A stretch of 64,000 nucleotides of DNA. It comes from the human T2T-CHM13v2.0 reference genome, Homo sapiens. Below the pieces are notes generated by a model. That model saw only the letters and a program-made list of their open reading frames with translations. It ran no database searches and was not told where the DNA came from. Of this stretch, positions 23,053-29,330 are shown in pieces (positions within the stretch are counted from its first letter, which is position 1; each line of letters begins with the position of its first letter). The stretch lies in the NCBI GenBank assembly GCA_009914755.4, contig CP086569.2, positions 352,001-416,000 on the forward strand, written 5' to 3'. The position numbers were made by a program, and so were the translations under genes.

Positions 23053-26000
23053 TCCTTCCTTCCTCCCTCCCTCTTTCTTTCTTTCTTTCCTTCTTTCTTC
23101 CTTTCTTTCTTTCCTTCTTCTTTTTCTTTCTTCTTTCTTTCTTTCTTCTCTCTCTCCTTCCTTATTCCTTTTCTTCCTTCCCTTCCCTCCCTTCCCTTTC
23201 CTTCTTTCCTTCCTTCCCTTCCTTCCTTCCTCTTTCCTTTCTTTCTCTTTTTCTTTCTTCTCTCTCTCTTTCCTTCCTTATTCCTCATCTTCCTTCCTCT
23301 TTCCTTTCTTTCTCTTTTTCTTTCTTCTCTCTCTTTCCTTCCTTATTCCTCATCTTCCTTCCTCTTTCCTTTCTTTCTCTTTTTCTTTCTTCTCTCTCTC
23401 TTTCCTTCCTTATTCCTCATCTTCCTTCCTCTTTCCTTTCTTTCTCTTTTTCTTTCTTCTCTCTCTTTCCTTCCTTATTCCTCATCTTCCTTCCTCTTTC
23501 CTTTCTTTCTCTTTTTCTTTCTTCTCTCTCTTTCCTTCCTTATTCCTCATCTTCCTTCCTCTTTCCTTTCTTTCTCTTTTTCTTTCTTCTCTCTCTTTCC
23601 TTCCTTATTCCTCATCTTCCTTCCTCTTTCCTTTCTTTCTCTTTTTCTTTCTTCTCTCTCTCTTTCCTTCCTTATTCCTCATCTTCCTTCCTCTTTCCTT
23701 TCTTTCTCTTTTTCTTTCTTCTCTCTCTCTGTCCTTCCTTATTCCTCATCTTCCTTCCTCTTTCCTTCCTTTCTCTTTTTCTTTCTTCTCTCTCTTTCCT
23801 TCCTTATTCCTCATCTTCCTTCCTCTTTCCTTTCTTTCTCTTTTTCTTTCTTCTCTCTCTCTTTCCTTCCTTATTCCTCATCTTCCTTCCTCTTTCCTTC
23901 CTTTCTCTTTTTCTTTCTTCTCTCTCTCTTTCCTTCCTTATTCCTCATCTTCCTTCCTCTTTCCTTTCTTTCTCTTTTTCTTTCTTCTCTCTCTCTGTCC
24001 TTCCTTATTCCTCATCTTCCTTCCTCTTTCCTTTCTTTCTCTTTTTCTTTCTTCTCTCTCTTTCCTTCCTTATTCCTCATCTTCCTTCCTCTTTCCTTCC
24101 TTTCTCTTTTTCTTTCTTCTCTCTCTCTTTCCTTCCTTCCCTTCCTTCCTTTCTCTTTCCTTTCTTTCTCTTTTTCTTTCTTCTCTCTCTCTTTCCTTCC
24201 TTATTCCTCATCTTCCTTCCTCTTTCCTTCCTTTCTCTTTTTCTTTCTTCTCTCTCTTTCCTTCCTTATTCCTCATCTTCCTTCCTCTTTCCTTCCTTTC
24301 TCTTTTTCTTTCTTCTCTCTCTCTTTCCTTCCTTATTCCTCATCTTCCTTCCTCTTTCCTTTCTTTCTCTTTTTCTTTCTTCTCTCTCTCTTTCCTTCCT
24401 TATTCCTCATCTTCCTTCCTCTTTCCTTCCTTTCTCTTTTTCTTTCTTCTCTCTCTCTTTCCTTCCTTATTCCTCATCTTCCTTCCTCTTTCCTTCCTTT
24501 CTCTTTTTCTTTCTTCTCTCTCTTTCCTTCCTTATTCCTCATCTTCCTTCCTCTTTCCTTTCTTTCTCTTTTTCTTTCTTCTCTCTCTTTCCTTCCTTAT
24601 TCCTCATCTTCCTTCCTCTTTCCTTTCTTTCTCTTTTTCTTTCTTCTCTCTCTTTCCTTCCTTATTCCTCATCTTCCTTCCTCTTTCCTTCCTTTCTCTT
24701 TTTCTTTCTTCTCTCTCTTTCCTTCCTTATTCCTCATCTTCCTTCCTCTTTCCTTTCTTTCTCTTTTTCTTTCTTCTCTCTCTCTTTCCTTCCTTATTCC
24801 TCATCTTCCTTCCTCTTTCCTTCCTTTCTCTTTTTCTTTCTTCTCTCTCTTTCCTTCCTTATTCCTCATCTTCCTTCCTCTTTCCTTTCTTTCTCTTTTT
24901 CTTTCTTCTCTCTCTTTCCTTCCTTATTCCTCATCTTCCTTCCTCTTTCCTTTCTTTCTCTTTTTCTTTCTTCTCTCTCTCTTTCCTTCCTTATTCCTCA
25001 TCTTCCTTCCTCTTTCCTTTCTTTCTCTTTTTCTTTCTTCTCTCTCTCTTTCCTTCCTTATTCCTTTTCTTCCTTCCTCTTTCCTTTCTTTCTCTTTTTC
25101 TTTCTTCTCTCTCTTTCCTTCCTTATTCCTCATCTTCCTTCCTCTTTCCTTCCTTTCTCTTTTTCTTTCTTCTCTCTCTTTCCTTCCTTATTCCTCATCT
25201 TCCTTCCTCTTTCCTTTCTTTCTCTTTTTCTTTCTTCTCTCTCTCTTTCCTTCCTTATTCCTCATCTTCCTTCCTCTTTCCTTCCTTTCTCTTTTTCTTT
25301 CTTCTCTCTCTCTTTCCTTCCTTATTCCTCATCTTCCTTCCTCTTTCCTTCCTTTCTCTTTTTCTTTCTTCTCTCTCTTTCCTTCCTTATTCCTCATCTT
25401 CCTTCCTCTTTCCTTTCTTTCTCTTTTTCTTTCTTCTCTCTCTTTCCTTCCTTATTCCTCATCTTCCTTCCTCTTTCCTTTCTTTCTCTTTTTCTTTCTT
25501 CTCTCTCTCTCTCCTTCCTTATTCCTCATCTTCCTTCCTCTTTCCTTCCTTTCTCTTTTTCTTTCTTCTCTCTCTCTTTCCTTCCTTATTCCTCATCTTC
25601 CTTCCTCTTTCCTTTCTTTCTCTTTTTCTTTCTTCTCTCTCTTTCCTTCCTTATTCCTCATCTTCCTTCCTCTTTCCTTCCTTTCTCTTTTTCTTTCTTC
25701 TCTCTCTTTCCTTCCTTATTCCTCATCTTCCTTCCTCTTTCCTTTCTTTCTCTTTTTCTTTCTTCTCTCTCTCTTTCCTTCCTTATTCCTCATCTTCCTT
25801 CCTCTTTCCTTCCTTTCTCTTTTTCTTTCTTCTCTCTCTCTTTCCTTCCTTATTCCTCATCTTCCTTCCTCTTTCCTTTCTTTCTCTTTTTCTTTCTTCT
25901 CTCTCTTTCCTTCCTTATTCCTCATCTTCCTTCCTCTTTCCTTTCTTTCTCTTTTTCTTTCTTCTCTCTCTCTTTCCTTCCTTATTCCTCATCTTCCTTC

Positions 26001-29093: not shown

Positions 29094-29330
29094 TCCTTTC
29101 TCTCTTCCTCCCTCCCTCCCTCCCTTCCTTCCCTTCCTTCCTTCCCTCTTCCTTCCCTTCCCTCCCTTCCCTTTCCTTCTTTCCTTCTTTCTCTTCCTTC
29201 CCTTCCCTTTCCTTCCCCTTCCTTCCTTCTTTCGTTCCTTCATTTCTTCCTTCCTTCTTTCCCTCCCTCCCTTCCTTCCTTCTTTCCTTCCTTCCCTCTG
29301 TCTCTGTCCTTTCTTCTCTCTCTTTCTCTG
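23053..29330. repeat. Very large CT-rich (polypyrimidine) minisatellite/VNTR, ~65-bp unit x ~95 copies (~6.3 kb), with degenerate CCTT/CTTT flanks
   Basis: Repeating unit ttccttccttattcctcatcttccttcctctttcct(t/c)tctttctctttttctttcttctctct(ct). The motif ttattcctcat recurs every 65-67 bp (23278, 23344, 23411 ...). The 2191-aa and 2186-aa + strand ORFs of F/L/S/P and the Lys/Glu/Arg minus-strand ORFs are artefacts. Confidence 0.97.

What the first reader, a model, noticed from the sequence alone, without database searches (positions are those of the whole stretch)
23053..29330. 6.3-kb polypyrimidine/polypurine VNTR (~65-bp unit x ~95), a candidate triplex-forming, fragile, hypervariable locus
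For more than 6 kb the + strand is almost exclusively C/T and the - strand A/G. The unit ttccttccttattcctcatcttccttcctctttcctttctttctctttttctttcttctctct is near-mirror-symmetric in places. Long perfect homopurine-homopyrimidine mirror repeats are the canonical H-DNA substrate and stall replication and transcription. Unit variants (ctctct vs ctctctct, ccttcctttc vs cctttctttc, occasional ctctgtcc) would allow internal variant mapping. Arrays of this size are expected to be strongly length-polymorphic and are often collapsed in short-read assemblies.
Basis: partly seen in the sequence, partly recalled or inferred. Interest (0 to 1): 0.65.

Follow-up and report, generated by a model that had tools for sequence, protein, structure and literature searches.

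The report
Alu-tail polypyrimidine minisatellite, not H-DNA
The 6.3-kb stretch is a real tandem array of about 90 nearly identical 65/67-base pyrimidine-only units that most likely grew out of the A-rich tail of an old Alu element; it is an unusually large but ordinary kind of primate minisatellite, and its core lacks the mirror symmetry needed for the classical triple-helix (H-DNA) structure.

Summary
Window 23053-29330 is 97.1% C/T on the + strand and is a tandem array: 86 canonical 65/67-bp units plus degenerate edges, scored by TRF as 91 copies at 95% match.

Every unit carries two A's, so pure pyrimidine runs in the core are only 57-59 nt. By the published H-DNA definition (arms >=10, spacer <8, >=90% AG/CT), the 5.7-kb core has 6 motifs, 1.1 per kb, and all sit in four rare variant units. 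Simple (TCTT)n/(TTTC)n tracts in the same window have 100-250 per kb. Mirror symmetry of the unit is at chance level (p=0.15).

What it is:
- The array ends directly at the T21 tail of a full-length antisense AluJ-like element (16% diverged), with purines on the Alu sense strand.
- A weak candidate target-site duplication lies on the far side of the array (p about 0.03-0.05).
- Units differ by only 1.3%.
- The edges hold older unit versions and a roughly 225-bp flanking direct repeat.
- A roughly 1-kb block is duplicated 2.97 kb away.

Best reading: an Alu-tail-born compound microsatellite amplified into a minisatellite by unequal exchange. Length polymorphism is likely but untested. No external sequence could be found.

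The parts
23037..23052 (.). Candidate left copy of the Alu target-site duplication (TATATGGAGAATGAAT), directly abutting the start of the pyrimidine tract
   Evidence: An anchored comparison with 29642-29656 gives 11-12 matches with one indel and a score of 5-6. The null p is about 0.03-0.05. An unanchored local test is not significant, p=0.14.
23053..23279 (+). 5' degenerate polypyrimidine edge (X1). It is built of (TTCC)n, (TCCC)n and (TTTC)n blocks plus an older, longer version of the unit carrying ATTCCTTTTC instead of ATTCCTCATC.
   Evidence: Sequence. It holds 7 H-DNA motifs with arms up to 18 nt. It is homologous to 29025-29256. The variant anchor is at 23160.
23280..28976 (+). Core array of 86 units of 65 or 67 bp. 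There are four main types (A and B at 67 bp, C and D at 65 bp), minor type E, single units H, I and J, one double-length interval G, and two double-length F intervals.
   Evidence: Mean pairwise substitution difference is 1.26%.
23393..24361 (+). First copy of an internal segmental duplication of about 1 kb
   Evidence: A 403-bp exact match at offset 2769 starts at 23393, and a 630-bp exact match at offset 2968 starts at 23732. The unit strings are CCCAEDABECFDBAB versus CCCAEBDADABECFDBBB.
26162..27329 (+). Second copy of the internal duplication, carrying a 199-bp (3-unit) insertion relative to the first
28470..28976 (+). Alu-proximal run of identical 67-bp units (last part of the ...AAAAABBBBBB block), the signature of recent local duplication
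   Evidence: A 429-bp exact self-match at offset 67 and the unit string.
28977..29024 (+). Diverged terminal partial unit, carrying ATTCCTTTTC as at the 5' edge
29025..29256 (+). 3' degenerate polypyrimidine edge (X2), a direct repeat of X1. It includes (TTTC)n and (TCCCT)n blocks and the only G3-type quadruplex/i-motif patterns of the tract.
   Evidence: Alignment score is 102.5 against a null of 60.5 +/- 6.5 (maximum 80 in 200 trials), with a 50-nt perfect stretch. H-DNA motifs. C3 patterns at 29110 and 29155.
29257..29330 (+). Last CT-rich stretch before the Alu tail, with three G interruptions at 29300, 29306 and 29330 (a fourth G, at 29234, lies just upstream inside X2)
29331..29351 (-). 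T21, which is the A21 tail of the Alu on the minus strand
29352..29641 (-). Full-length antisense Alu, closest to AluJ. Identity is 83.7% to an AluJo consensus recalled from memory, against 80.1% to AluSx and 79.0% to AluY.
29642..29656 (.). Candidate right copy of the target-site duplication (TGGATGGAGATGTTT), directly abutting the Alu 5' end

Best explanation
This is a non-coding minisatellite that grew from the 3' A-rich tail of an old Alu (AluJ-like) element lying on the minus strand.

Proposed history:
1. As in many Alu tails, the poly(A) acquired G's and became a compound purine microsatellite: (GAAA)n, (GGAA)n, (GA)n and (GGGA)n on the Alu strand, which reads as C/T on the + strand.
2. 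A piece of about 230 bp was duplicated, giving X1 and X2.
3. One 65-bp block carrying a private two-base signature (ATTCCTCATC instead of ATTCCTTTTC) was amplified to 86 nearly identical copies. The likely mechanism is out-of-register recombination or replication re-alignment between units (unequal sister-chromatid or interallelic exchange, or slippage).
4. CT-dinucleotide slippage (65 versus 67 bp), block duplication and local runs followed.

The array has no demonstrated function. Its properties follow from its composition:
- Neither strand can form hairpins.
- The purine strand would make stable RNA-DNA hybrids if it were the non-template strand.
- The canonical units lack mirror symmetry. 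Intramolecular triplex (H-DNA) should therefore be confined to the degenerate edges, four variant units and short borderline segments.
- Instability is expected to be driven by homology, not by triplex formation.

Shown directly: anatomy, composition, motif counts, adjacency to the Alu tail, and internal duplications.

Inferred: tail origin, mechanism of growth, neutrality and polymorphism.
For: Tail position and polarity:
- The pyrimidine tract runs without any unique sequence into T21 and a full-length antisense Alu.
- Purines therefore lie on the Alu sense strand, contiguous with the poly(A).
- In this window, 3 of 54 Alu 3' ends carry extensions that are >=90% purine and contain G (29353, 35106, 44843). 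None of the 54 Alu 5' ends has a pur/pyr flank.

Target-site duplication:
- For the Alu at 35106-35382, the duplication AAAAACA lies beyond its (TTTC)n tract. This shows the same process at small scale in the same window.
- For the array, the 16 nt left of the tract match the 15 nt right of the Alu 5' end, with a score of 5-6 and p about 0.03-0.05.
- The alternative placement at the array/poly-T junction scores -3 to 1.

Single recent founder:
- Units differ by 1.26% on average, with only 2 common variant sites.
- The Alu is 16% diverged from its consensus.
- Both edges, and one internal unit, keep ATTCCTTTTC.

Growth by misaligned exchange:
- A 630-bp exact repeat at offset 2968, a 403-bp one at offset 2769, and a 429-bp exact run at offset 67.
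- Flanking direct repeats X1 and X2, with z about 6.5.

Structure potential:
- The minimum folding energy is 0 kcal/mol for both strands as DNA.
- H-DNA motif density is 1.1 per kb in the core, against 100-250 per kb in simple tracts.

Literature:
- Alu and L1 poly(A) tails are a major birthplace of A-rich microsatellites (PMC3812793).
- The RFC1 (AAGGG)n expansion of 400-2000 units sits in an AluSx3 poly(A) tail (PMC11667243).
Against: - The target-site duplication is weak. An unanchored local alignment gives p=0.14, and the anchored test gives only p about 0.03-0.05 against a repeat-rich null.
- The 3/54 versus 0/54 contrast between Alu ends is not significant on its own.
- A pure A21 tail on a 16%-diverged Alu is unexpected. 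It needs ongoing slippage, or it hints that the junction is younger than the Alu.
- No orthologous or allelic sequence could be obtained. Age, polymorphism and tail origin are therefore untested.
- The Alu consensus sequences were recalled from memory.
- Triplex formation can tolerate some imperfection. CCTTCC-type units have 22-nt arms with 2 mismatches, so some H-DNA in the core is not excluded.
Confidence: 0.62

Rival explanations
1. One reading: the array is a canonical H-DNA (intramolecular triplex) substrate. It therefore stalls replication and transcription and behaves as a fragile site, like the PKD1 intron-21 tract or long GAA repeats.
For: - 97.1% purine/pyrimidine strand purity over 6.3 kb.
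- The degenerate edges hold real H-DNA motifs: 7 in X1 and 19 in the 3' edge, with arms up to 18 nt.
- The two F units carry 16-nt arms.
- 37 CCTTCC-type units hold an 18-nt self-mirror word that extends to 22-nt arms with 2 mismatches.
- Imperfect-mirror coverage is 20%, against 8-14% in controls.
Against: - No canonical unit has a motif with arms >=10 and spacer <8.
- Core density is 1.1 per kb with 3% coverage, about 100 times lower than the simple tetranucleotide tracts in the same window.
- Perfect-mirror coverage is below the Markov control: 6.5% against 12%.
- The longest imperfect arms are 22 nt, shorter than in the controls (24-32 nt).
- Unit mirror identity is at chance, p=0.15.
- Two A's per unit interrupt the pyrimidine strand every 57-59 nt.
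Confidence: 0.15
2. The polypyrimidine tract existed first, and the Alu later inserted at its T-rich end. L1 endonuclease prefers TTTT/A sites. On this view the array is not derived from the Alu tail.
For: - The + strand reads ...CTCTG-T21-Alu, and a T-rich tract edge could prime reverse transcription.
- TGTTTTT occurs both at the array/poly-T junction and 10 nt beyond the Alu 5' end.
- Other CT-rich tracts in the window are not at Alu tails: 12020, 18053 and 51883.
- The intact A21 looks young.
Against: - A target-site duplication anchored at the array/poly-T junction scores -3 to 1, against 5-6 for the far-side placement.
- The flank beyond the Alu 5' end is not pyrimidine-rich.
- The Alu is old (16% diverged) whereas the array units are 98.7% alike, so at least the present array post-dates the Alu.
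Confidence: 0.15
3. It is a functional transcribed element. One possibility is a multivalent polypyrimidine RNA that binds PTBP1/hnRNP proteins, like PNCTR. Another is a giant polypyrimidine tract feeding the cryptic 3' splice site of the antisense Alu.
For: - There are 1,894 overlapping and 521 non-overlapping YUCUYY/YYUCUY motifs on the + strand. PNCTR has 2,178 and 565 in more than 10 kb (PMC6224606).
- The tract is followed by T21 and GGAGACAG|G of an antisense Alu. From general knowledge of Alu exonization, this is the usual Alu-exon acceptor context.
Against: - There is no evidence of transcription, no nearby CpG island, no Rfam family and no coding exons in the window.
- The motif density is an automatic consequence of C/T composition.
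- The unit homogeneity looks like concerted evolution, not selective constraint.
Confidence: 0.05
4. It is an assembly artefact: a wrongly expanded or collapsed repeat.
For: Arrays of near-identical 65/67-bp units are hard to assemble, and the true copy number could differ.
Against: - The unit order is an aperiodic mosaic of four types with unique landmarks (E, F, G, H, I and J units).
- The edges are diverged and the junctions with unique DNA and with the Alu are clean.
- Assembler stutter would give a regular pattern.
Confidence: 0.03

Closest known systems
Purine-repeat expansions born in Alu poly(A) tails, for example RFC1 (AAGGG)n in an AluSx3 tail (CANVAS), and A-rich Alu-tail microsatellites in general
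   Same: - The repeat is contiguous with the Alu 3' poly(A), with purines on the Alu sense strand.
- It has reached multi-kb size. RFC1 pathogenic alleles have 400-2000 units, that is 2-10 kb (PMC11667243).
- It fits the general birth mechanism described in PMC3812793.
   Different: - The amplified unit here is a 65/67-bp compound block (minisatellite scale), not a 3-6-nt motif.
- It therefore has no mirror symmetry and very few H-DNA motifs.
- The Alu is AluJ-like.
- No disease link or gene context is known.
PKD1 intron 21 polypyrimidine tract (PyRE)
   Same: A kilobase-scale tract about 97% C+T on one strand. This one is about 2.5 times longer.
   Different: [quoted passage not shown]
- The core here holds 6 motifs in 5.7 kb.
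- This one is a regular tandem array.
- Intronic location is unknown here.
Classical hypervariable minisatellites/VNTRs with interspersed variant repeats, as found in subtelomeric VNTR-dense regions
   Same: - Head-to-tail units of tens of bp, with a few variant unit types interspersed (suitable for variant-repeat mapping).
- Block duplications and deletions, as described for human VNTRs (PMC8327921).
- The surrounding region is 30% tandem arrays, like subtelomeres (PMC7608644).
   Different: - GC content is 38% and composition is purely purine/pyrimidine, whereas typical subtelomeric VNTRs are GC-rich (>60%).
- Polymorphism was not measured.
PNCTR, the pyrimidine-rich short-tandem-repeat RNA from the rDNA spacer
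   Same: A comparable number of PTBP1-type YUCUYY/YYUCUY motifs.
   Different: - Not in rDNA.
- No evidence of transcription.
- Built of one long unit, not of several short tandem repeats.

Membership tests
Minisatellite / VNTR | Head-to-tail tandem copies of a unit of 7 bp or more | tested here: met
   TRF gives period 67, 91 copies, 95% matches, score 10348. There are 86 anchored units of 65/67 bp.
Minisatellite / VNTR | Copy number varies between individuals | not testable with these tools
   No primate or population assemblies could be reached. Collection scans and protein look-ups found nothing. The only evidence is indirect: 1.26% unit divergence and internal duplications.
H-DNA motif (H-palindrome) | At least 90% purine on one strand and AT content below 80% | tested here: met
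   97.1% C/T, with A+T about 62%.
H-DNA motif (H-palindrome) | Mirror repeat with arms >=10 nt and spacer <8 nt (definition in PMC11879447) | tested here: not met
   The core 23280-28977 has 6 motifs, all in the rare F, F, I and J units, and none in canonical units. The edges do meet the criterion, with 7 and 19 motifs. The unit's mirror identity is at chance level.
Alu 3'-tail-derived purine repeat | Repeat contiguous with the Alu poly(A), with purines on the Alu sense strand | tested here: met
   The tract runs into T21 and then the antisense Alu 29352-29641.
Alu 3'-tail-derived purine repeat | Target-site duplication lies beyond the repeat, not between Alu and repeat | tested here: inconclusive
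   The far-side candidate scores 5-6 (p about 0.03-0.05), against -3 to 1 for the junction placement. The unanchored test gives p=0.14. A positive control in the window (the Alu at 35106) shows the expected pattern.
Alu 3'-tail-derived purine repeat | Orthologous loci show the Alu with a short tail before the expansion | not testable with these tools
   No primate genomes are available in the collections.
PKD1-PyRE-like triplex-forming polypyrimidine tract | Many H-DNA-forming mirror repeats within the tract | tested here: not met
   1.1 motifs per kb in the core, against 27 mirror repeats in the 2.5-kb PyRE (PMC11667243).
SVA retrotransposon VNTR | (CCCTCT)n hexamer, Alu-like part, GC-rich VNTR, SINE-R and poly(A) in order | tested here: not met
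   The array abuts a single full-length Alu tail. The far side is unique DNA, and the unit is 38% GC.
GGAA microsatellite (EWS-FLI1-type response element) | Four or more consecutive GGAA repeats (threshold recalled from general knowledge) | tested here: not met
   There are 605 GGAA on the purine strand, but only in runs of 2 (213) or 3 (7), and none of 4 or more.
PNCTR-like multivalent pyrimidine RNA | Dense YUCUYY/YYUCUY motifs | tested here: met
   1,894 overlapping and 521 non-overlapping motifs, against 2,178 and 565 in PNCTR.
PNCTR-like multivalent pyrimidine RNA | Transcribed and bound by PTBP1 | not testable with these tools
   No expression or CLIP data are available. There is no CpG island near the array and no Rfam match.

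The most novel reading that the evidence does not exclude
This may be one of the longest purine/pyrimidine tracts in a primate genome, about 2.5 times the PKD1 tract. It may have escaped H-DNA catalogues precisely because it is a minisatellite without mirror symmetry. If it lies in a transcribed region it could matter in one of two ways:
- As + strand RNA, it would be a PNCTR-scale PTBP1/hnRNP sponge, or a giant polypyrimidine tract driving exonization of the adjacent antisense Alu.
- With the purine strand as non-template, it would be a kilobase R-loop-forming transcription and replication barrier whose strength varies with copy number.
Probability: 0.07. Interest if true: 0.55.

Novelty: new member of a known kind. 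Interest (0 to 1): 0.3.

Why it matters
- It is a clean worked example of microsatellite-to-minisatellite conversion at an Alu tail. The founder signature, older edge units, flanking direct repeat and block duplication are all still readable.
- It shows that extreme purine/pyrimidine purity does not by itself imply H-DNA. Motif-based non-B catalogues would score this 6-kb tract as nearly empty, while composition-based scans would flag it as extreme.
- If the locus proves to be length-polymorphic and lies in a gene, copy number could modulate transcription or splicing. That remains to be shown.
- Otherwise it is an ordinary, probably neutral, VNTR in a VNTR-dense primate region.

Tried and rejected
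1. Independent copies of the locus:
   - Scanning genome contigs with a 29-nt unit pattern gave 0 hits.
   - Scanning metagenome contigs with a 22-nt pattern gave 2 hits. Both are single chance matches in bacterial contigs with no repeat.
2. Stop-free ORFs. The + strand has artefactual ORFs of 2,186-2,191 aa because it lacks purines.
   - Exact look-up of 10 such window ORFs found none in the collection.
   - A homology search with 400 aa (flank plus array) gave no hit at E<=1e-5.
   - These ORFs are not genes.
3. Locus identification:
   - Six-frame ORFs show only Alu, L1 and low-complexity translations, so no exon was found to identify the locus.
   - Rfam gave no family at gathering score.
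4. Literature: full-text search for the unit sequence on either strand found 0 papers. Bacolla et al. 2006 (PMC1464109) is not held.
5. Unanchored target-site-duplication test: not significant.
6. The systematic Alu map shows it lies 60 nt beyond an Alu 5' end, so it was removed from the count.
7. Other structures:
   - Hairpin or slipped-strand structures are impossible for either strand.
   - G3-type quadruplex/i-motif patterns occur only in the degenerate edges.
8. SVA origin and EWS-FLI-type GGAA microsatellite: defining features are not met.
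Full report
**Setting.** The window is primate DNA. It holds 54 Alu 3' ends in 64 kb and L1 ORF2 fragments. It has no Rfam family at gathering score and no recognisable coding exon. About 19 kb (30%) lies in tandem arrays of 350 bp or more. That density is typical of VNTR-rich, subtelomere-like regions (PMC7608644). The exact locus and species could not be determined with the collections available.

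**Check of the observation.**
- Positions 23053-29330 contain 3692 T, 2407 C, 171 A and 8 G, so the + strand is 97.1% pyrimidine.
- GC skew is -0.99 to -1.0 in six consecutive 1-kb bins.
- Tandem Repeats Finder reports 23087-29110, period 67, 91 copies, 95% matches and score 10348, with 132- and 199-bp higher-order rows.
- Anchoring on ATTCCTCATC gives successive spacings of 65 bp (32) or 67 bp (45). There are also two spacings of 71 bp and three double-length intervals.
- The 22-mer spanning the unit junction occurs 86 times with up to 3 mismatches. All 86 are inside the array, against zero expected.
- After splitting the double intervals there are 86 units. Only two variant sites are common. 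The (CT)n length is 34 short versus 52 long. One T/C site (CCTTTC versus CCTTCC) splits 49 versus 37.
- A T-to-G change is seen in four units, and there are a few private changes. Mean pairwise substitution difference is 1.26%.
- Refinements: every unit has two A's, so uninterrupted pyrimidine runs in the core are 57-59 nt. About 580 bp at the two ends is degenerate, not canonical.

**Anatomy.**
- The unit string is CACCCAEDABECFDBABDCCDADCAGDABDCHBCDABCABCCCCCAEBDADABECFDBBBCDCABBDAAIJAAAAABBBBBB. It is an aperiodic mosaic with landmarks.
- The longest exact self-matches are 630 bp at offset 2968 (23732 = 26700) and 403 bp at offset 2769 (23393 = 26162). A block of about 1 kb is thus duplicated about 45 units away, with a 3-unit insertion in the second copy.
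- The Alu-proximal end is a homogeneous run, with a 429-bp exact match at offset 67 from 28470.
- Both array edges, and one internal unit, carry ATTCCTTTTC where the amplified unit has ATTCCTCATC. The canonical units therefore descend from one founder with a private two-base signature, and the edges keep older versions.
- The 5' edge 23055-23279 and the 3' edge 29025-29256 are homologous direct repeats. The alignment score is 102.5, against 60.5 +/- 6.5 for Markov-1 controls (maximum 80 in 200), and includes a 50-nt perfect stretch.

**Relation to the Alu.**
- The tract ends at ...CTCTG followed by T21 and a full-length antisense Alu at 29352-29641.
- That Alu is 83.7% identical to an AluJo consensus, against 80.1% for AluSx and 79.0% for AluY. 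The consensus sequences were recalled from memory, so the numbers are approximate.
- Read on the Alu's strand, the order is Alu body, A21, then 6.28 kb of almost pure purines. This is exactly where Alu tails give birth to A-rich microsatellites (PMC3812793). It is also where the RFC1 (AAGGG)n expansion of 2-10 kb sits (PMC11667243).
- Within this window, 3 of 54 Alu 3' ends carry extensions that are >=90% purine and contain G. None of the 54 Alu 5' ends has a purine/pyrimidine flank.
- For one of them, the Alu at 35106-35382 with a (TTTC)n tail, the target-site duplication AAAAACA lies on the far side of the microsatellite. This is a local positive control.
- For the array, the 16 nt left of the tract (TATATGGAGAATGAAT) match the 15 nt right of the Alu 5' end (TGGATGGAGATGTTT) with an anchored score of 5-6 and p about 0.03-0.05. 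The rival placement at the array/poly-T junction scores -3 to 1.
- An unanchored local test is not significant, p=0.14.
- I take tail origin as the best-supported reading, at roughly two chances in three. It is not proven.

**Triplex question.**
- I applied the definition used for the T2T H-DNA survey: arms >=10 nt, spacer <8 nt, >=90% AG/CT, AT <80% (PMC11879447).
- The 5,698-bp core holds six motifs (1.1 per kb, 3% coverage). All are in the rare F, F, I and J units, and none is in a canonical unit.
- Other tracts by the same scan:

| Tract | Motifs | Density or coverage | Longest arms |
|---|---|---|---|
| 5' degenerate edge | 7 | 52% coverage | 18 nt |
| 3' degenerate edge | 19 | 41% coverage | 18 nt |
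| (TCTT)n 18053-18768 | 76 | 83% coverage | 48 nt |
| (TTTC)n 34947-35103 | 39 | 248 per kb | 45 nt |
| (TTTC)n 44650-44845 | 31 | 158 per kb | 30 nt |

- Perfect-mirror coverage of the whole tract (6.5%) is below that of Markov-1 sequences of the same composition (12%).
- Allowing 10% mismatches, the longest arms are 22 nt, against 24-32 nt in controls. Coverage is 20%, against 8-14% in controls.
- The reversed unit matches the unit at 73% at its best rotation, against 68 +/- 3% for shuffled units, p=0.15.
- With spacers up to 100 nt there are many 10-18-nt mirror pairs. They reflect an 18-nt self-mirror word in CCTTCC-type units repeated from unit to unit, separated by about 50 nt. That is a poor geometry for H-DNA.
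[quoted passage not shown] This array is the opposite case: extreme strand purity without mirror symmetry.
- Neither strand can form Watson-Crick hairpins; the minimum folding energy is 0 kcal/mol for both.
- G3-type quadruplex/i-motif patterns occur only in the edges.

**How it most likely works.** The array is best seen as a neutral by-product of repeat dynamics.
- An Alu tail matured into a compound purine microsatellite.
- A piece of about 230 bp was duplicated.
- One 65-bp block was then amplified and kept homogeneous by out-of-register exchange or re-alignment.
- CT slippage generated the 65/67-bp dimorphism.
- All four combinations of the two common variants occur at similar frequency (20, 20, 19 and 13 units). 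This fits recurrent slippage and exchange between units.
- The contrast between 1.3% unit divergence and 16% Alu divergence means the present array is much younger than the Alu, or is continuously homogenised.
- Either way, turnover is recent and length polymorphism is a reasonable expectation. This is inference, not measurement.
- Any effect on replication or transcription is more likely to come from purine-rich RNA-DNA hybrids when the purine strand is the non-template strand. That is general knowledge, supported by the homopurine transcription-blockage papers listed. Misalignment between units is another likely source. Classical H-DNA in the core is the less likely cause.

**Other readings.**
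- If the + strand is transcribed, the RNA would carry 1,894 overlapping or 521 non-overlapping YUCUYY/YYUCUY motifs. This is close to PNCTR's 2,178 and 565 (PMC6224606). The tract would also precede the usual antisense-Alu acceptor GGAGACAG|G.
- There is no evidence of transcription and no CpG island nearby. The motif load follows automatically from composition.
- GGAA occurs 605 times on the purine strand, but never in runs of four or more.

**What failed.** No allelic or orthologous sequence could be retrieved.
- The genome and metagenome scans gave nothing, or chance bacterial hits.
- Exact look-ups and a homology search with the artefactual stop-free ORFs gave nothing.
- The unit sequence appears in no paper of the library.

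**Verdict.** The triplex/fragile-site interpretation is only partly supported. The element is a new, very large member of a known kind: an Alu-tail-derived purine/pyrimidine tandem repeat of minisatellite type. Interest is moderate to low unless population data or a gene context show a functional consequence.

Noticed in passing
window 18053-18768: A (TCTT)n tract of about 0.7 kb. It is the densest true H-DNA-motif region in the window: 76 motifs, 83% coverage, arms up to 48 nt. It is a far better triplex candidate than the 6.3-kb array.
   Followed up: partly
window 32677-33945: A 153-171-bp VNTR of about 7 copies. Each unit is the last roughly 106 bp of an Alu (consensus positions 177-282, minus strand), plus an (AAT)n tail of variable length (8-14 repeats), plus about 25 bp. 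It is an Alu-derived minisatellite with a nested microsatellite.
   Followed up: partly
window 51897-52265: A 69-bp x 5.2 CT-rich array inside a (TCTT)n tract. Its unit aligns over its full length with the main 67-bp unit (score 42 against null 34 +/- 2.5, 0 of 300 shuffles). This is either common descent or parallel birth from the same kind of compound microsatellite.
   Followed up: partly
window 9159-11932: A GC-rich (62%) 44-bp VNTR with 63 copies at 95% identity (CCCTCTCCCTGCATCCCCTTTCCCTGTGGGAGTGAGAGCTCCTT), followed by a CT-rich tract at 12020-12471.
   Followed up: no
window 55285-56926: A G-rich 29-bp VNTR with about 56 copies at 91% identity (TGGAGAGGGGATATATGGAGAGGCTGCTC). It has strong positive GC skew and one GGGG per unit.
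   Followed up: no
window 49852-51723: A degenerate (ATCC)n array of about 470 copies (1.9 kb) with almost no G on the + strand (GC skew -0.8 to -0.9).
   Followed up: no
window 2401-3565 and 30545-31810: Two further large arrays. One is AT-rich TCTA/TATG with 80- and 396-bp higher-order periods. The other is TG/TA-rich (alternating purine-pyrimidine, Z-DNA-prone) with 176-188-bp periods.
   Followed up: no
window 34947-35382 and 44650-45124: Two younger antisense Alus (91-93% identical to an AluS consensus) whose poly(A) tails are replaced by (GAAA)n of 157 and 196 bp. For the first, the target-site duplication AAAAACA lies beyond the microsatellite.
   Followed up: yes
window 22861-29465 (+): Because the + strand has almost no purines, it has no stop codons in any frame. 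This gives mechanical 'ORFs' of 2,186-2,191 aa made of S/F/L/P. These are artefacts that gene callers could mis-annotate.
   Followed up: yes
window 29331-29351: A pure A21 tail on an Alu that is about 16% diverged from its consensus. Old Alu tails are usually short and degraded, so this homopolymer is probably maintained or regrown by slippage.
   Followed up: no
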